Sequence record: PQ850613.1
DNA: 64,000 bases
DNA from: Escherichia phage KarlSchell_Bas89
Reading direction: 5' to 3' (one strand)
Of the stretch, positions 1-48,657 are shown one piece after another (position 1 is the first letter of the stretch; every line of letters starts with the position of its first letter). The notes below the pieces were generated by a model. It ran no database searches. It was not told the DNA's origin and was given only the letters and a program-made list of their open reading frames with translations. The translations under genes and the position numbers were made by a program.

Positions 1-1542
1 ATGTCATTAGATAAAGAAATATATGAAGCTCTCACTGGAGATAAACTAACAGTAGAGGAAAAGAAGCATCTGTTAGGAATATTAAAAGAGCGAGATACAT
101 GGAGAAAGTATAACAAGATGTTAGCTTTCAAAGCATACGACTTTCAGAAGAAGTTTTATGCAGCAGGACTGAAGCATCGCTTTAGGTTCCTGTGCGCAGC
201 TAACCGTGTTGGTAAATCTTATAGCGAGGCATACGAGTTTGCTTGTCATGTCACAGGTCGCTACCCAACTTGGTGGACTGGATACAAATTTAAAAGACCT
301 ATCCTTGCATGGGCAGTCGGGATTACAGGGGATTCCACAAGAAAGGTTTTGCAAAAGGAATTGTTTGGCACACCTATTGGAAAAGATACAGATCTTATTG
401 GTACAGGTGTGATTCCTCGTGATGCTATTGTCATAGACACAATAGAACGAGATGGTAACAAGCTTCAGATCGTACAAATTAAACATCAAAATGAAAGGGG
501 AGAGTTTGACGGCCTGAGCACATTAGAATTCCGTTCAACCCAACAGGGTGAACATACATTGATGGGTGCTACAGTTGATTATATTTGGCTGGACGAAGAA
601 GATCCTTATGAAAGTATGGCAATCTTCTCTCAGTGTGTAACACGTACACTCACAACTAAAGGTTTAGTAACAATTACTGCTACACCAGAGAACGGTTTAA
701 CAGAGCTGGTGGACAAGTTTATGAAAGGTGAAGGTGATGCAGATACAGGTTCTCTGTATTTCCAGAATGCTTCTTGGTGGGATGCACATGTTGACTTAGG
801 TGGTCACATCTCAGACAAGGATATAAAGGATATGACCGAAGGTATTCCTGCTTGGCAGCTAGAGATGCGCTCCAAAGGTATGCCTCTGTTGGGTTCAGGT
901 TTGATTTATGATGTATCTGATGACGCAGTTAAGTGTGAACCATTCGATATCCCTGATACATGGAAACGTGTGTGTGCGGTTGATATTGGTATTGATCACC
1001 CTACTGCTGCTGTTTGGTCGGCTTACGACGCTAACACTGATACTATTTACATCTATGACTGCTATAAAGAAGGTGGTTACACTCCAGCTTATCATGCTCC
1101 GGCTATTAATGGTCGAGGACAGTGGATTCCGGTGGTGTTACCTCACGATGCTGACAACCTTGAGAAAGGTAGTGGTTCTTCAGTGGCCCAATTCTATAGG
1201 AATGCAGGGGTTAACGTACAATCTGAGACCTTCTACAACAAGATTGGAATGGATGGTAAAAAGAACTTCTTTGTAGAGCCGGGAATTACAGATATTCGTG
1301 AACGTATGATGTCAGGTCGATTCAAGATCTTTAATACTGCTTCCTGTGCTAAACTCTTTGAAGAAAAAGCACGATACCACCGTAAGGTTGGTAGGATTGT
1401 TAAAGAACATGATGACTTGATGGATGCGATGCGCTATTCTGCTTGTTCCGTAACACATAGAGGTCGTAGTAAACACGATGCTAGCTACGGAAGCTCGTCG
1501 CTTTATCAAGAAAATATTAACAGATGGAATTCGAGTTACTAA
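1..1542 (+). CDS. terL: terminase large subunit; true start may lie upstream of the window
   Basis: Walker A-like 'CAANRVGKS', Walker B-like 'VDYIWLDEED', RNaseH-like nuclease half 'CAVDIGIDHPTAAVW'; sits directly before the putative portal. Confidence 0.8.
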   Translation: MSLDKEIYEALTGDKLTVEEKKHLLGILKERDTWRKYNKMLAFKAYDFQKKFYAAGLKHRFRFLCAANRVGKSYSEAYEFACHVTGRYPTWWTGYKFKRPILAWAVGITGDSTRKVLQKELFGTPIGKDTDLIGTGVIPRDAIVIDTIERDGNKLQIVQIKHQNERGEFDGLSTLEFRSTQQGEHTLMGATVDYIWLDEEDPYESMAIFSQCVTRTLTTKGLVTITATPENGLTELVDKFMKGEGDADTGSLYFQNASWWDAHVDLGGHISDKDIKDMTEGIPAWQLEMRSKGMPLLGSGLIYDVSDDAVKCEPFDIPDTWKRVCAVDIGIDHPTAAVWSAYDANTDTIYIYDCYKEGGYTPAYHAPAINGRGQWIPVVLPHDADNLEKGSGSSVAQFYRNAGVNVQSETFYNKIGMDGKKNFFVEPGITDIRERMMSGRFKIFNTASCAKLFEEKARYHRKVGRIVKEHDDLMDAMRYSACSVTHRGRSKHDASYGSSSLYQENINRWNSSY

Positions 1543-40852: not shown

Positions 40853-41107
40853 TTACCCCTTAGGGAAAGGAAGAAGATTTTCTACTGCAACACGATAAAC
40901 TTTTTCTACGTTTTTGTTTTTATAGGAGATAAACTTGCCATCAGCACCACGAAGAATTACATTAGTGCGAGCAGTCTTCGGGTTCTGGGAAATCTGACCA
41001 GCAATGATAGACGCATTAATCGCATTATCAGCGAAGTTAGCAAACTTCCACTTAACCAGTTTATTGGAAATTGAATCGATGATAGTTACAGTTTTTACGA
41101 TAGACAT
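40853..41107 (-). CDS. hypothetical protein
   Basis: 84-aa ORF, adjacent to the upstream stop. Confidence 0.35.
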   Translation of the reverse strand: MSIVKTVTIIDSISNKLVKWKFANFADNAINASIIAGQISQNPKTARTNVILRGADGKFISYKNKNVEKVYRVAVENLLPFPKG

Positions 41108-41166
41108 ATTTTATTACCTAAAGGGTTTGTATAAAAGAAAAGGCCACCCAAGCGGGTAGCCTCTGA

Positions 41167-44487: not shown

Positions 44488-44742
44488 TTAAGCAGTGATC
44501 AGGTGGAGGGTAAATGGGATGACCACAGAGATAATAACCCAAGCAACAGATGCGATTTGGATTTCATTCTTCTTGTCCGGTGTCTCTTCAATAAGTTTCT
44601 TGCTGCCATAATAAACACCGCCGCCAATGAGAAGTGCCCAAATACTCCAAATGGTTGCTGATAACATATTCAATTCCTTATAAACAAGTTCGCCCCACCT
44701 CGGATTAGGAGACAGGGCGGAGGTTTTAGTATGAGACGTCAC
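44488..44742 (-). CDS. small two-TMD membrane protein
   Basis: Two hydrophobic segments 'LSATIWSIWALLIGGGVYY' and 'IASVAWVIISVVIPFTL'. Confidence 0.4.
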   Translation of the reverse strand: MTSHTKTSALSPNPRWGELVYKELNMLSATIWSIWALLIGGGVYYGSKKLIEETPDKKNEIQIASVAWVIISVVIPFTLHLITA

Positions 44743-45310
44743 TGGAGTGTGACATGTTACTTTTAACGAAGTAGCAATACTTGCCTAACCCTTCGTTGAT
44801 TTCTTGGAGCATGCTCTGGTCAACTGGATACTCGCTCAAACATCCATCGAACTCATCCATTTTGTCAATCATGCACATTAAAGACATGCACATATCAGAG
44901 AGCATACCATCCATATCTAGGTCTGCATTTCCTTCAGAGAACCAAGAGTGTGACAAGTAGTTAGAAGCAGTTGCATCCACCTTAATACAGTGGAAACGCA
45001 TACGTTCAGCTATCCGATCACCTGTCTCACGAGCATAATCTTCCAGCTCATCAAACATTCCATGAACACCCTGAAACCCTGCACCAGATACGTTCCAGTG
45101 ATAATTCTTAGCTTTGATATGCAAGAGTTCTAAGTTAGCTTGAATACCGCATAGAATGTGTTCTAGGCTGTTTCCACTAATCATCCCTTGCATACGCTCT
45201 AAACGGGAGATAGAAGAGTCTGTTTCACGTAATACATCACGGAAAGAAGTCTCTTTTGTTAGAGTTGGTAAGTCGAAAACATTGTGATTAGACATTAGGA
45301 TTTTCTCCAT
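44726..45310 (-). CDS. Dps/ferritin-like protein
   Basis: 'HWNVSGAGFQGVHGMFDELEDYARETGDRIAERM' matches the Dps ferroxidase-site signature. Confidence 0.6.
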   Translation of the reverse strand: MEKILMSNHNVFDLPTLTKETSFRDVLRETDSSISRLERMQGMISGNSLEHILCGIQANLELLHIKAKNYHWNVSGAGFQGVHGMFDELEDYARETGDRIAERMRFHCIKVDATASNYLSHSWFSEGNADLDMDGMLSDMCMSLMCMIDKMDEFDGCLSEYPVDQSMLQEINEGLGKYCYFVKSNMSHSSDVSY

Positions 45311-45617
45311 CAAGTTCTACTGAGTTCGCAACATTGCGTTCCAGATTTGAGATTACCTGTTGGGTGATAACGATGCAGTTCTGTGGGTCAACTGACTTAG
45401 AACGTCCCATCTCAGGGTCATACACCTTAACACGTTTTGCTGTAGAACCAGTTACCTGTAACACCTTGAGAAGATAACCCTGATTCCCGATAGACCATGC
45501 AACAACATCACGATTCTTGATGAATCGACCAAGCATATCACGATGGTAGAACTGCTGCATAACCTTTGATTTATTAATCTCTTCGGCTGGCGGAGCCACT
45601 TTACTCAAATCTAACAT
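45288..45617 (-). CDS. hypothetical protein
   Basis: 109-aa ORF; promoter-like motif upstream. Confidence 0.35.
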   Translation of the reverse strand: MLDLSKVAPPAEEINKSKVMQQFYHRDMLGRFIKNRDVVAWSIGNQGYLLKVLQVTGSTAKRVKVYDPEMGRSKSVDPQNCIVITQQVISNLERNVANSVELDGENPNV

Positions 45618-45654: not shown

Positions 45655-45664
45655 TATATACATT
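45655..45664 (-). promoter_or_regulatory. promoter-like motif AAATGTATATA on the minus strand, ~38 nt upstream of the 45617 gene
   Basis: Plus-strand tatatacattt; 9 of 10 match to TAATGTATAT. Confidence 0.35.
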
Positions 45665-45689
45665 TGAGAGTGATCATATCTACTACCAA

Positions 45690-45902
45690 TTAGTAGTAAA
45701 CATATCCAGAGATATATGAGCCTTTATCCCCACTAAACTCAAACCATCGATGCATGTCAGCACGTTTAACCGTACCGACTAGAGCTTTCATATTCTTCTT
45801 AGCAATACGAGCCTCTTTACGAGTGTTAAACAGTTTGATATTATCTTTACCTAGATGGTGTCCATCTTCCCAAACAACACGAACAGCCCACATCTTTTTC
45901 AT
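45690..45902 (-). CDS. small basic protein, tandem paralog 3 of 3
   Basis: Shares 'K.W.VRV...R.EAR..KK...G.YISG.V.Y' with the two upstream ORFs. Confidence 0.45.
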   Translation of the reverse strand: MKKMWAVRVVWEDGHHLGKDNIKLFNTRKEARIAKKNMKALVGTVKRADMHRWFEFSGDKGSYISGYVYY

Positions 45903-46117
45903 TAGTAATGCACCTTTCCGCTGATATAAATACGGCCTGAGGTATACTCATAGCCCTTGAGAATCTTGACAGAGGTAAGATATCCAGTGTGTAATTCACT
46001 GAACGATTTCTTAAGCCTACGTGCGCCTTCTCGTGTTTTCTGGTAGGTCATGGTCACACCCCCACTTGTCCACTCTGTTCTAACTAACCAAACTCTTTTC
46101 ATAAGACCTGCTCTCAT
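45902..46117 (-). CDS. small basic protein, tandem paralog 2 of 3
   Basis: Same family pattern; stop-start overlaps on both sides. Confidence 0.45.
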   Translation of the reverse strand: MRAGLMKRVWLVRTEWTSGGVTMTYQKTREGARRLKKSFSELHTGYLTSVKILKGYEYTSGRIYISGKVHY

Positions 46118-46314
46118 TAGTAGTACACCTTGCTGCCAGCCATGAAAGCCCCTGTCGAGCTTATAATAACCTTACTGATAGTAACTTTCTTATGCCGGAA
46201 GTATGTCTTCCAGCCCTTTTTACAGATTCGAGCTTCTTGTCGAGTCTTACAAAAGTCAGCCAAAGACAGCTCTTGGGTTTTGTTATCATAAACACGAACA
46301 CACCACTTTTTCAT
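46117..46314 (-). CDS. small basic protein, tandem paralog 1 of 3
   Basis: Same family pattern; ends in YY. Confidence 0.45.
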   Translation of the reverse strand: MKKWCVRVYDNKTQELSLADFCKTRQEARICKKGWKTYFRHKKVTISKVIISSTGAFMAGSKVYY

Positions 46315-46839
46315 TTATCTTTCATCCACATTAAAGGAGAGATGGAGTCTGCTTCTCATAGACTTAGCTAAAAGTTTTGCCTCTTCGAGAGTTTTCACTC
46401 CATATACAGACTCACGTTTACCATCTTTTTGAACAGAGACACAGAACGTCCCACCTTTCTCTTGGTAGACATTCTTAATCCCTAGCTTGTTATCAACTCT
46501 GGTCTTAGCATTCTGACTATTTTCAGAGTGAGAACACTTTCTCAGGTTAATTTCTTCTAGATTCCCTCTGTTACCATCAGCGTGATCTATTTGATATTCA
46601 TCCGATAAATCCTCACCAGTATAAAGAACAAAAAGAATCCTATGATTATGGACACGAACTCCTCCTAAGGGAATTTGGTAATATCCATCTTTTGTGAGTT
46701 TTCCAGCAGGTTTCCCTGCTATATCATTAGCAAATTTACTAGGCTTCCTTTTCCAAGAAAGCCCTGACGGGGATGACATGTCTATGTTAAAAAGATCAAA
46801 CACTTCATCATAGCATATCAGCATGGTTTGTTCCACCAA
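46315..46839 (-). CDS. HNH homing endonuclease with AP2-like domain
   Basis: 'HNHRILFVLYTGEDLSDEYQIDHADGNRGNLEEINLR' plus 'GIKNVYQEKGGTFCVSVQKDGKRESVYGVKTLEEA'. Confidence 0.8.
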   Translation of the reverse strand: MVEQTMLICYDEVFDLFNIDMSSPSGLSWKRKPSKFANDIAGKPAGKLTKDGYYQIPLGGVRVHNHRILFVLYTGEDLSDEYQIDHADGNRGNLEEINLRKCSHSENSQNAKTRVDNKLGIKNVYQEKGGTFCVSVQKDGKRESVYGVKTLEEAKLLAKSMRSRLHLSFNVDER

Positions 46840-47362
46840 AAGCTTTTGTTGGCCCTTGTTGGTTATTGTATGAACCTTTAGTTGCGTAACTATCTTCTTC
46901 AGAGGAGGAGTGTTTAAAGAACTCCATTTGACCGATACGCATTCCCGGCTTAATTAGCAAAGAGTGATGCTGTAGGACGTTCTTGAATTCCATAGTAAGT
47001 TGGCTCCCATGCCACCCACCGTCAGCATGACCAGCGTGCATGTGCTCTAAGAAGCAACGACCAACAGTGGACCGTAACATGAAGTCACAACTAATATTAT
47101 CTGGCAGGTTGAATGTCTCCACTGTATGAGCCAAGAAGCACTCACCCGGTTTGATAACTAAACCTTCTTCTGGAATCATAACCTCGTTGAAGTTAGGAGA
47201 CTCTTTAGCGGAGATATCAACAACCCCATTAGCTGCTCCTTCCATCAGAACACGGTCTCCAATACGAACATCAATACTGGAGGAGTTAACAGCTGAGTGA
47301 GGTGCATCAATAACACCATCATCGATTAGTTTATGTAATTCCGGACTTCCTAATAAACTCAT
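46808..47362 (-). CDS. dcd: dCTP deaminase (dUTPase superfamily)
   Basis: Collinear with E. coli Dcd by eye: 'IDVRIG', 'KPGECFLAHTVE', 'AGHADGGWHGSQLTMEF', 'IKPGMRIGQMEF'. Confidence 0.8.
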   Translation of the reverse strand: MSLLGSPELHKLIDDGVIDAPHSAVNSSSIDVRIGDRVLMEGAANGVVDISAKESPNFNEVMIPEEGLVIKPGECFLAHTVETFNLPDNISCDFMLRSTVGRCFLEHMHAGHADGGWHGSQLTMEFKNVLQHHSLLIKPGMRIGQMEFFKHSSSEEDSYATKGSYNNQQGPTKAFGGTNHADML

Positions 47363-47376
47363 TCTTATTCCTTGTA

Positions 47377-48657
47377 TTAATCTGCGATACTATCGCTTTC
47401 ATCAACCCAGACTGTACCATTAACCTGTCTTAGACGACGAGCTGACGCTTCGTTAATAGAGTTAACCCCTGCTGTGCGAGGGTTTGTGTACCAAGGTCGA
47501 GCTATGGTGCCCTCTCGAATCACTTGGTTCGTTTCGACATGCCATCTGTTTGATACCATGTTGGCTTCAAAGTTACCACCCGCTCCACCACTGATAGGCA
47601 CAGCTTGAGCTGGTTGGTTTACTCGGTTAGTTCCTGCCCCAAAGGATGCTGCAAATTCAGACATACGTGCATCAAATGCAGAACGAACACGCTGAGTAGG
47701 TGATATATCATTTCGTGTATCTACTGCACGAGGCATAGCCCAAGTATCATCTGTTGAGATATCAGGGGTAGGCTCTTGCTCTAGAGGTTGAAGATTAGCT
47801 GTCCATTGACTGTTCAGTATACGATAGAAATCTGCACCATAACCACTTCGGATAACATCTTCTCTGATACCAAAAAAGCGACTAATATCTCCACCGATTC
47901 GGGCCAACTTATCGTTGTATGTAGATACAGATACCCCACTTTCTGTTACTAAGTCAGAAACACGACTTGTTGTAAGTGGTGAGTTATTCCAACAATAATA
48001 GTCAGTAATGTGGCCGTCATACCCAAAGTATGCAACCTCTGCATCAGGCCATTTCTTGTGGACATATGCCACTTCGCGAGTAGAACAAACAGGGATTGCG
48101 CCTGTTTCAGTCATTGCATAGAAGCCGTCAGAAGAGAACCAAAGTGAGTCTAGTGCTAAGAATCCACGACACACACTTGGGAAAGTAGCAGCCAGCGCCC
48201 CAAGTGAGGTGGGTTCGTTGAACATTAACTGAACCTTTGCACCCTGATAATCAATCTCTAGGATATCTACAAAATTCAAAGAAGACCCAGGGGCATATTG
48301 ACTATTACTTCGTCCAATATCCTGCTCAACAAGAAGAGATCTTGTTTCAACACCATGAGCCTCTGCCCACTCTTTGAAATCTTCAAGGAACAAGCGAGCC
48401 TTAGCTCGCCACATCGACCGATCAGTTACGGATTGTCTCGGCAATCCGCCCTCTGTAGTGATGAGGAAGATATCAATGTCATGGGGCTCACGCGTCTGGA
48501 AGATTGCATCCCTAACAGCACCACCTGCAATGATAGGGTACACACCATCAGGGATTAAACGGTTTGCAATCAACTCGTTAATTAACGTAAGACCAGACAT
48601 AAGCTGCGGACTGTCATCAATCCGACGACGAATTAGTGCATTAGGGATATTATACAT
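47377..48657 (-). CDS. pol-beta-superfamily nucleotidyltransferase (CCA-adding / poly(A) polymerase-like head) with a long unknown C-terminal region
   Basis: 'IIAGGAVRDAIF...PHDIDIF' matches the GGxVRD...DxD nucleotidyltransferase signature; directly abuts the exonuclease gene. Confidence 0.5.
   Translation of the reverse strand: MYNIPNALIRRRIDDSPQLMSGLTLINELIANRLIPDGVYPIIAGGAVRDAIFQTREPHDIDIFLITTEGGLPRQSVTDRSMWRAKARLFLEDFKEWAEAHGVETRSLLVEQDIGRSNSQYAPGSSLNFVDILEIDYQGAKVQLMFNEPTSLGALAATFPSVCRGFLALDSLWFSSDGFYAMTETGAIPVCSTREVAYVHKKWPDAEVAYFGYDGHITDYYCWNNSPLTTSRVSDLVTESGVSVSTYNDKLARIGGDISRFFGIREDVIRSGYGADFYRILNSQWTANLQPLEQEPTPDISTDDTWAMPRAVDTRNDISPTQRVRSAFDARMSEFAASFGAGTNRVNQPAQAVPISGGAGGNFEANMVSNRWHVETNQVIREGTIARPWYTNPRTAGVNSINEASARRLRQVNGTVWVDESDSIAD

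What the first reader, a model, noticed from the sequence alone, without database searches (positions are those of the whole stretch)
45690..46314. Tandem triplication of a small basic protein family
Three consecutive ORFs of 65-71 aa with overlapping stop-start junctions share a pattern (M-K-K-W-x-V-R-V ... R-x-E-A-R ... K-K ... G-x-Y-I-S-G-x-V-x-Y) but have diverged considerably. Tandem paralog arrays of tiny basic proteins are a common form for host-takeover or anti-defense factors; the function here is unknown.
Basis: seen in the sequence. Interest (0 to 1): 0.5.

Follow-up and report, generated by a model that had tools for sequence, protein, structure and literature searches.

The report
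Three small basic phage paralogs
Three adjacent, translationally coupled genes of a phiEco32-like E. coli phage encode diverged copies of one tiny, strongly basic protein that occurs only in this phage group; they are real genes, already in databases as "hypothetical proteins", and their function is still unknown.

Summary
Three minus-strand ORFs, C (46117-46314), B (45902-46117) and A (45690-45902), are true paralogs. Profiles built from orthologues of one copy find the other two as the best non-self hits among 991 window ORFs, and all three match PHROG 4939 (unknown function) end to end.

The window is a phiEco32-like coliphage (Gordonclarkvirinae). The genes are orthologues of phiEco32 gp71, gp70 and gp69. 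They lie between dCTP deaminase and a phage-sigma promoter. dN/dS is 0.1-0.5.

At internal junctions the penultimate Lys/Glu-Val codons form the Shine-Dalgarno sequence of the next copy, and stop and start overlap (TAATG).

AlphaFold models (pLDDT 80 and 92) give a strand-strand-helix-strand-strand domain with no specific structural relative. The invariant residues (W, T-R-x-x-A-R-x-x-K) place an Arg/Lys ridge on the single helix. Net charge is +5 to +12 across the family.

Only 28 representatives turn up among 1.84 billion proteins, none in bacterial genomes. A and B are core genes; C and dispersed extra copies vary between phages.

My best inference, at moderate confidence, is that these are polyanion (nucleic-acid) binding accessory proteins. 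Host-factor or anti-defence inhibitors remain a live rival. Nothing here tests function. Interest is modest.

The parts
46117..46314 (-). Copy C: 65 aa, pI 9.97, net charge +11. Orthologue of phiEco32 gp71. This is the accessory member of the array.
   Evidence: ORF. phrog_4939 match at E 7.3e-23. 80% identical to KBNP1711 gp073 and 52% to phiEco32 gp71. Found in 64 phage records, against 93-98 for A and B. AF2 model has pLDDT 91.9 with strand-strand-helix-strand-strand order.
45902..46117 (-). Copy B: 71 aa from the ATG that overlaps C's stop codon, or 66 aa from the ATG at 46100-46102. Orthologue of phiEco32 gp70. Core gene.
   Evidence: ORF. phrog_4939 match at E 3.3e-21, aligned from residue 6. 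Gene callers start most orthologue clusters at MKRVW. 94% identical to phage NC-B and 50% to phiEco32 gp70. phi32_70 is listed among the core genes of the phiEco32 subgroup.
45690..45902 (-). Copy A: 70 aa, pI 9.99, net charge +8. Orthologue of phiEco32 gp69. Core gene and the last gene of its transcription unit.
   Evidence: ORF. phrog_4939 match at E 2.2e-22. 97% identical to phage NC-B, 89% to O18-011 and 60% to phiEco32 gp69. AF2 model has pLDDT 80.5. phi32_69 is listed as a core gene.
46126..46131 (-). AAGGTG, the Lys-Val codons near the C-terminus of copy C. It is Shine-Dalgarno-like and lies 8 nt upstream of the ATG of B at 46115-46117, which overlaps C's TAA stop (46117-46119).
   Evidence: Read from the sequence. 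The same (A/G)AGGTn arrangement is present at 13 of 14 internal array junctions in 7 phages.
45911..45916 (-). AAGGTG, the Lys-Val codons near the C-terminus of copy B. It is Shine-Dalgarno-like and lies 8 nt upstream of the ATG of A at 45900-45902, which overlaps B's TAA stop (45902-45904).
45655..45700 (-). Downstream boundary of the array: a promoter-like region in front of the gp68 homologue. It has a sigma-70-like -35 TTTACT (45695-45700, overlapping A's last codons), a -10 TATGAT (45673-45678), and the phage-sigma (gp36) motif AAATGTATATA (45655-45665).
   Evidence: The consensus tAATGTAtA and a promoter upstream of the gp68 homologue are described for phiEco32 and SU10 in PMC8948821 and PMC4281155. 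SU7 carries an annotated promoter at the same spot.
46315..46839 (-). Context, not a family member: a free-standing HNH endonuclease gene inserted between dCTP deaminase (46808-47362) and copy C.
   Evidence: Pfam HNH_3 at E 2e-8 and phrog_99 at E 4.8e-41. Absent at this position in phiEco32, KBNP1711 and EP335.

Best explanation
SHOWN. The three ORFs are genuine protein-coding paralogs, the orthologues of phiEco32 gp71, gp70 and gp69. They form the distal end of the leftward replication and nucleotide-metabolism transcription unit of a Gordonclarkvirinae phage. They are read from one mRNA by translational coupling: the penultimate Lys-Val codons of each copy (AAGGTG) act as the Shine-Dalgarno sequence for the next, and stop and start overlap as TAATG. 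Each product is a single-domain protein of about 8 kDa. Its predicted order is a beta-hairpin, one helix, then a second beta-hairpin. Every family member is strongly basic.

INFERRED. The family-invariant Thr-Arg-x-x-Ala-Arg-x-x-Lys(-Lys) segment caps and begins the only helix. It places Arg, Arg, Lys and Lys on one solvent-facing ridge next to the hydrophobic face that packs on the sheet. I take this ridge to be the working surface. I infer that it binds a polyanion, most likely the backbone of DNA or RNA during phage replication or gene expression. On this reading the variable loops give each paralog and allele its own preference. These are the beta1-beta2 loop, the helix-beta3 loop and, in A, the C-terminal hairpin.

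The array evolves by birth and death at a fixed locus. A and B are kept in all relatives, while C and the dispersed D/E copies come and go.
For: - **Paralogy.**
- **Coding and purifying selection.** dN/dS is 0.11-0.49 for unsaturated orthologue pairs of all three copies. Alternative frames match no family.
- **Identity and synteny.** The order dCTP deaminase, array, gp68 homologue, Dps-like gene is found in phiEco32, O18-011, KBNP1711, EP335, SU7 and EK010. It is also found in two far more divergent metagenomic phages, L004 and L017, each with three family members in the array.
- **Coupling.** Junction sequences are. The C-terminus of the last copy, A, which has no coupled gene downstream, is variable. 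The C-terminal GKVHY of B is invariant.
- **Fold.** AF2 pLDDT is 80.5 for A and 91.9 for C, with the same element order.
- **Invariant residues.** W5, T27, R28 and R32, with A31 and K35 nearly invariant, across 31 diverse members. On a helical wheel R28, R32, K35 and K36 fall at 0, 40, 340 and 80 degrees, while A31, A34 and M38 fall at 300, 240 and 280 degrees.
- **Charge.** Net charge is +5 to +12, mean +8.3, in all 31 members.
- **Core status.** phi32_69 and phi32_70 are listed as core genes.

Against: A basic ridge could equally well dock onto an acidic protein surface. Variable copy number and allele reassortment fit an antagonistic role as well as they fit this one. The proteins were not among the 34 detected by mass spectrometry in SU10 lysate, though this is weak evidence because they are small and rich in Lys and Arg. 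I had no model coordinates, so surface exposure is derived from helix periodicity, not measured.
Confidence: 0.4

Rival explanations
1. They are small protein-binding inhibitors of host factors, used for host takeover or anti-defence. Each paralog or allele would neutralise a different host protein, with the basic ridge docking on an acidic or nucleic-acid-binding surface of the target.
For: - Copy number varies: 1-3 copies in the array, and 0-2 dispersed copies between thioredoxin and ThyX in other genomes.
- A, B and C alleles reassort freely between genomes.
- Across distant relatives only one array member (L004_1 and L017_2) keeps recognisable orthology, which indicates turnover.
- The family is confined to one lytic phage lineage and is absent from 185,579 bacterial and archaeal species genomes.
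- Gordonclarkvirinae are reported as highly resistant to tested defence systems, with no known inhibitor (PMC11990801).
- From general knowledge: the small class II proteins of T7 that sit among its replication genes (gp1.2, gp2, gp5.5, gp5.7, gp5.9) are host-protein inhibitors.
Against: - No match to PADLOC or to any known anti-defence fold. phi29-type p56 appears only at Foldseek E 0.67, probability 0.41.
- The proteins are basic, not acidic like DNA-mimic anti-restriction proteins.
- The same Arg/Lys ridge is invariant across all subtypes, which argues for one common ligand rather than many evolving targets.
- A and B are core genes under purifying selection.
- The neighbouring enzymes are equally mosaic, so allele shuffling is not special to the array.
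Confidence: 0.3
2. They are accessory or regulatory subunits of neighbouring phage proteins. Candidates are the dCTP deaminase, the CCA-adding-enzyme-like nucleotidyltransferase, the gp68 homologue and the Dps-like protein. The paralogs might also assemble with one another.
For: The position directly downstream of dCTP deaminase and upstream of gp68 and the Dps-like gene is conserved even in very divergent relatives. Translational coupling gives co-ordinated synthesis. The extra D/E copies also sit between nucleotide-metabolism genes, thioredoxin and ThyX.
Against: A alleles combine freely with B and C alleles and with dCTP deaminase and nucleotidyltransferase alleles. For example, the window's dCTP deaminase is 100% identical to that of O18-011, yet B and C are only 48-54% identical. 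That pattern is not expected for co-evolving interfaces. Copy number ranges from 1 to 3. Phage 7-11 carries a single copy in a different neighbourhood. I could not run a multimer prediction.
Confidence: 0.12
3. They are decaying or functionless duplicated ORFs, kept only as spacer or translational-coupling sequence, or hitch-hiking with the adjacent homing endonuclease.
For: No function is known and the proteins were not detected by mass spectrometry in SU10. An HNH endonuclease abuts the array in this window.
Against: dN/dS is well below 1 for all three copies. Reading frames are intact in 64-98 phage records. The invariant residues and the confident fold are retained across members only 25-35% identical. 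The array is present in genomes that have no HNH gene at this site.
Confidence: 0.03

Closest known systems
phiEco32 gp69, gp70 and gp71 with their orthologues in Kuravirus, Nieuwekanaalvirus and Suseptimavirus (PHROG 4939, 'unknown function')
   Same: Direct orthologues. They share the same position between dCTP deaminase (gp72) and gp68, the same order, the same overlapping junctions, and full-length profile matches.
   Different: The window carries an allele combination not seen in the records I compared. Its A is like NC-B and O18-011, while its B and C are like KBNP1711 and 4E8. It also has an HNH insertion upstream. No function has been reported for any member: a literature search for the locus tags and the PHROG id found nothing.
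Small class II (replication-region) proteins of phage T7, such as gp1.2, gp2, gp5.5, gp5.7 and gp5.9 (from general knowledge; an analogy, not homology)
   Same: They are tiny proteins encoded among replication and nucleotide-metabolism genes of a lytic podovirus, and are often translationally coupled.
   Different: No sequence or fold relationship was found. The T7 proteins are not a paralog family, and several are acidic. Here all members are basic and share one invariant motif.
Small basic chromatin or RNA-binding proteins, such as Sso7d/Cren7-type proteins, HU, and ribosomal proteins like uL22 (functional analogy)
   Same: They are similar in size (7-8 kDa), in very high positive charge density, and in having an exposed Arg/Lys surface.
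Protein G B1 / beta-grasp-like two-hairpin-plus-helix domains (recalled from memory as a topology lead)
   Same: The order of elements matches: hairpin, helix, hairpin in about 60 residues.
Phage DNA-mimic anti-restriction or anti-repair proteins (Ocr, ArdA, phi29 p56)
   Same: They are small phage proteins, and p56 appears in the Foldseek list.
   Different: The p56 match is not significant (E 0.67-2.3, TM 0.37-0.49). DNA mimics are strongly acidic, whereas this family carries +5 to +12.

Membership tests
PHROG 4939 (phage protein family of unknown function) | Significant full-length match to the family profile | tested here: met
   A scores E 2.2e-22 (residues 1-70 against profile 1-67 of 67). 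B scores 3.3e-21 (residues 6-71). C scores 7.3e-23 (residues 1-65).
phiEco32 gp69/gp70/gp71 orthologue groups | Best matches to gp69, gp70 and gp71 respectively, and the same position between dCTP deaminase and the gp68 homologue | tested here: met
   Identity to phiEco32 is 60% (A), 50% (B) and 52% (C), with conserved order and flanks. The bit-score matrix separates the A, B and C groups cleanly within Gordonclarkvirinae.
Tandem paralog array (common descent of the three copies) | Statistically significant similarity between copies, shown independently of a profile that already contains them | tested here: met
   Orthologue-only profiles give A to C 3.6e-7, A to B 4.5e-5, B to A 1.1e-10, B to C 2.5e-4, C to A 1.1e-5 and C to B 6.2e-3. 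The best background hit is 0.13 or worse among 991 ORFs.
Known anti-phage-defence or counter-defence proteins | Match to a model of a defence-system protein, or to a solved anti-defence protein | tested here: not met
   PADLOC gives 0 families at E<=10. Foldseek against the PDB gives nothing at E<0.001. p56 scores E 0.67 and the AcrIIA2 complex chain E 1.5. PADLOC models defence proteins rather than inhibitors, so this test is weak.
DNA-mimic anti-restriction proteins (Ocr, ArdA, p56 type) | Strongly acidic surface that mimics DNA phosphate | tested here: not met
   Net charge is +8, +9 (or +10 for the long form) and +11, with pI 10.0-10.3. The whole family ranges from +5 to +12.
Curated protein domain families (Pfam-A, NCBIfam) | Score above the family threshold | tested here: not met
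   No family matches the three proteins. For 34 and 31 family members scanned individually, only scattered single hits appear at E 0.05 or worse.
Nucleic-acid-binding protein families with solved structures | Sequence-profile or fold similarity to a known DNA- or RNA-binding domain | tested here: not met
Beta-grasp / protein G B1-like fold | Mixed four-stranded sheet of order 2-1-4-3, with parallel central strands crossed by one helix | not testable with these tools
   Only the order of secondary-structure elements is returned, and no coordinates were available. The afdb50 library was unavailable.
Translationally coupled operon genes | Stop/start overlap with a Shine-Dalgarno sequence inside the upstream gene | tested here: met
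   TAATG overlaps, with AAGGTG 8 nt upstream of the ATG, occur at both junctions. The same arrangement occurs at 13 of 14 internal junctions in 7 phages. Coupling itself is inferred from sequence, not measured.

The most novel reading that the evidence does not exclude
The array encodes the unidentified determinant behind the reported broad resistance of Gordonclarkvirinae to restriction-modification and other defence systems. On this reading it is a new family of small basic proteins that either coat or mask phage DNA, or block DNA-targeting host nucleases. The conserved Arg/Lys helix would be the common DNA- or nuclease-binding element. The variable loops, paralogs and alleles would diversify under host pressure.
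Probability: 0.1. Interest if true: 0.7.

Novelty: new member of a known kind. Interest (0 to 1): 0.3.

Why it matters
Gordonclarkvirinae are common, therapeutically used coliphages whose molecular biology is poorly known. They are unusually resistant to tested defence systems for reasons nobody has identified (PMC11990801). A lineage-restricted family with two core members, sitting in the replication block, is a reasonable place to look.

The family has a confident small fold, an invariant basic ridge and variable copy number, which makes it a tractable target. The proteins are about 8 kDa, easy to express, and have clear point mutants to test.

The dual use of the C-terminal Lys-Val codons as the ribosome-binding site of the next copy neatly shows how a tandem duplication unit can carry its own translational coupling signal.

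Without functional data, however, this remains one of many uncharacterised small phage gene families.

Tried and rejected
- **Curated libraries.** Pfam, NCBIfam and PADLOC scans of the three proteins and of 31-34 family members gave nothing.
- **PDB sequence profiles.** Searches with two alignments gave only sub-threshold uL22 and proline dipeptidase hits.
- **Exhaustive profile search.** Among 1.84 billion representatives there were 28 hits. The four long proteins among them (I inspected P0053 and P0066) are tail-fibre or adhesin repeats scoring by summed weak repeats. They are not homologues, so there are no informative domain fusions.
- **Extra ORFs in relatives.** The fourth small ORFs next to the array in O18-011 (ORF103) and KBNP1711 (gp074) are not family members.
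- **Collection scans.** IMG/VR, the metagenome collection and GTDB genomes gave only close relatives (4 and 8 loci) and no bacterial copy.
- **Literature.** No paper mentions the locus tags or the PHROG id. The two primary phiEco32 papers (PMC2587145, PMC3275717) are not held. The temporal class therefore rests on secondary statements that disagree. The SU10 paper puts CDS69-125 in the early class. The 7-11 paper puts nucleotide-metabolism genes, and the upstream gene 79, in the middle class.
- **Hypervariable-hairpin idea.** I considered a single hypervariable specificity hairpin common to all copies and rejected it, because the variable segments differ between A, B and C.
- **Co-evolving heteromer idea.** I considered A, B and C as a co-evolving complex. 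Free reassortment of alleles argues against it.

Full report
**1. What is at the coordinates**

Between 45690 and 46314 there are three consecutive ORFs on the minus strand. Copy C is 46117-46314 (65 aa), copy B is 45902-46117 (71 aa) and copy A is 45690-45902 (70 aa), transcribed in that order. Each junction is a one-base stop/start overlap reading TAATG. B also has an in-frame ATG five codons downstream (46100-46102). That start gives the MKRVW N-terminus that gene callers use for most orthologue clusters, so B's true start is uncertain. Overlapping ORFs in other frames and on the plus strand match no phage protein family, and no Rfam family matches the region.

**2. Whether the similarity is real**

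Pairwise BLASTP gives A-B E=5e-7 and A-C E=5e-5, with nothing for B-C. All three match PHROG 4939 over its whole length at E about 1e-21 to 1e-23.

That profile probably already contains all three types, so I built profiles from orthologues of one copy only. I searched each against all 991 stop-to-stop ORFs of the window. Each profile found the other two copies as its best non-self hits, at E 1e-10 to 6e-3. The best background hit was 0.13 or worse. The paralogy is therefore established, and no further copy exists in the window.

**3. Which genome this is**

The region is 80-88% identical in DNA to phiEco32-like coliphages: Gordonclarkvirinae, genera Kuravirus and Nieuwekanaalvirus.

The three ORFs are the orthologues of phiEco32 gp71, gp70 and gp69. 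In phiEco32 these lie between dCTP deaminase (gp72) and the conserved gp68 and Dps-like gp67. In the window an HNH homing-endonuclease gene (46315-46839) has been inserted between dCTP deaminase and copy C.

Directly after copy A's stop codon lies a promoter-like region. It has a sigma-70-like -35/-10 pair and the AAATGTATATA motif of promoters read by the phage sigma factor gp36 (consensus from PMC8948821 and PMC4281155). The array is therefore the last part of the upstream transcription unit.

Secondary sources disagree on the temporal class. The SU10 paper assigns CDS69-125 to the early class and 25-68 to the middle class. The 7-11 paper places the nucleotide-metabolism genes, and even gene 79, in the middle class. 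The primary papers were not available. I treat the class as 'early or delayed-early to middle, not resolved'.

**4. Evidence that the genes are functional**

Nei-Gojobori dN/dS for orthologue pairs with unsaturated dS is 0.11-0.49 for each of A, B and C. tblastn finds intact A in 93 phage records, B in 98 and C in 64. A published core-gene table lists phi32_69 and phi32_70, but not phi32_71. The proteins were not among 34 detected by mass spectrometry in an SU10 lysate. This is weak negative evidence for 8-kDa Lys/Arg-rich proteins.

**5. Anatomy of the array**

At 13 of 14 internal junctions in seven phages, the sequence 13 to 8 nt before the downstream ATG is (A/G)AGGTn. These are the Lys/Glu-Val codons of the upstream copy's C-terminal K-V-x-Y motif. 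The stop codon overlaps the ATG. In the window both junctions read AAGGTG-yAy-TAC-TAATG.

The duplicated unit thus carries its own Shine-Dalgarno sequence, which argues for coupled translation. This is inferred from sequence.

Consistent with a dual constraint, B's C-terminal GKVHY is invariant. The C-terminus of the last copy, A, which has no coupled gene downstream, is among its most variable parts.

**6. Distribution and evolution**

An exhaustive profile search of 1.84 billion representative proteins gave only 28 hits at E<1e-3. All genuine ones are proteins of 64-80 residues. The few long hits are repeat proteins scoring by accumulation. Scans of IMG/VR and of a metagenome collection returned only close relatives, and a scan of one genome per bacterial or archaeal species returned none.

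Structure-based search of viral models adds members in the 7-11-like Salmonella and Cronobacter phages and in Aeromonas phage LAh_8. Phage 7-11 has one unannotated copy in a different neighbourhood.

Copy number varies between genomes.
- Suseptimavirus (SU7, EK010), ECBP2 and NC-B lack C.
- KBNP1711, ECBP2, NC-B and EK010 carry one or two further, more divergent copies (types D and E) between thioredoxin and ThyX.
- Two very divergent metagenomic phages (L004, L017) keep the order dCTP deaminase, three copies, gp68, Dps-like gene.
- A third metagenomic contig (L018) has one copy between a 168-residue gene product and a 109-residue one that I did not identify.

Within Gordonclarkvirinae the A, B and C groups are clean. 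Between the distant arrays only one pair, L004_1 and L017_2, is recognisably orthologous, and it sits at different positions. This is birth-and-death evolution at a fixed locus.

Alleles reassort between genomes. The window pairs an A like that of O18-011 and NC-B with B and C like those of KBNP1711. However, dCTP deaminase (100% versus 56-58%) and the nucleotidyltransferase (91-93% versus 32-41%) are equally mosaic. Reassortment is therefore a property of the region, not of the array alone.

**7. The protein**

AlphaFold2 with family alignments gives confident models: pLDDT 80.5 for A and 91.9 for C. Both have the same order: strand, strand, helix, strand, strand.

Across 31 diverse members the invariant residues are W5, T27, R28 and R32, with A31 and K35 nearly invariant. 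On a helical wheel R28, R32, K35 and K36 occupy a contiguous arc (0, 40, 340 and 80 degrees). This arc lies next to the small or hydrophobic face (A31, A34, M38) that must pack on the sheet. Net charge is +8 to +11 for the window proteins and +5 to +12 for all 31 members. Variable segments differ by paralog: the beta1-beta2 loop and C-terminal hairpin in A, the helix-beta3 loop in B, and both loops in C.

**8. Comparison with known families**

**9. Mechanism**

*Shown:* these are real, selected, probably co-translated paralogs encoding a small basic alpha/beta domain with an invariant Arg/Lys ridge.

*Inferred:* the ridge binds a polyanion, most plausibly nucleic acid, and the variable loops differentiate the copies (confidence about 0.4).

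The main rival, at about 0.3, is that they inhibit host proteins (host takeover or anti-defence). That reading is favoured by the variable copy number and the lineage restriction. It is also favoured by the reported unexplained defence resistance of Gordonclarkvirinae. Against it stand the uniform basic character, the single invariant surface across all subtypes and the core status of A and B. A role as subunits of neighbouring enzymes is less likely given free allele reassortment. Junk ORFs are essentially excluded.

**10. Verdict**

The genes are new alleles of an already catalogued, function-unknown phage family. Interest is modest (0.3). It would rise sharply only if the array proved to be the defence-evasion determinant of this phage group, for which I estimate about 10% probability.

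Noticed in passing
window 46315-46839 (-): A free-standing HNH_3 homing endonuclease gene lies between dCTP deaminase and copy C. Its first 32 nt overlap the end of the dCTP deaminase ORF (46808-47362). It is absent at this site in phiEco32, KBNP1711 and EP335. O18-011 has an HNH gene plus one extra unrelated small ORF here.
   Followed up: partly
window 45655-45700 (-): A dual promoter-like site lies between copy A and the gp68 homologue. It combines a sigma-70-like TTTACT-16-TATGAT with the phage-sigma gp36 motif AAATGTATATA. The core AATGTATA occurs 7 times in the window against 2.8 expected. The other sites are 7718(+), 24566(+), 34459(-), 34532(+), 42006(-) and 48651(-). The last overlaps the nucleotidyltransferase start codon.
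   Followed up: partly
window 46808-48657 (-) and loci L001-L003, L011-L014: The block from dCTP deaminase through the nucleotidyltransferase to the array is strongly mosaic. The window's dCTP deaminase is 100% identical (aa) to O18-011 but 56-58% to the other relatives. Its CCA-adding-enzyme-like nucleotidyltransferase is 91-93% identical to KBNP1711 and EP335 but only 32-41% to the others. The gp68 homologue stays at 88-96% throughout.
   Followed up: partly
L006 (Salmonella phage 7-11, NC_015938) about 949-1167 (-), record about 40948-41166: An unannotated 73-aa ORF (MSKVQWEVHF...KTRAEARAHKK...) matches the family profile at E 8.6e-7. It lies in the gap between gp054 and gp055 and overlaps the 3' end of gp055.
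   Followed up: no
L002 1619-1822 (-), L010 6069-6293, L011 5068-5292, L012 4865-5077 and 5085-5300: More divergent family members (types D and E) sit at a second locus, between the thioredoxin and ThyX genes, in KBNP1711, ECBP2, NC-B and EK010. The window has none there.
   Followed up: partly
window 44691-44719 (-): A strong terminator-like hairpin (11-bp stem, 7 GC pairs) lies just downstream of the Dps-like gene (44726-45313). It may end the short transcription unit that starts at the promoter after copy A.
   Followed up: no
window 44726-45617 (-): The gp68 homologue (109 aa, phrog_10984, unknown function) is the most conserved gene of the neighbourhood and always follows the array. It overlaps the start of the Dps/ferritin-like 'DNA-binding protein' gene. 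Both products were detected by mass spectrometry in SU10 (PMC4281155).
   Followed up: no
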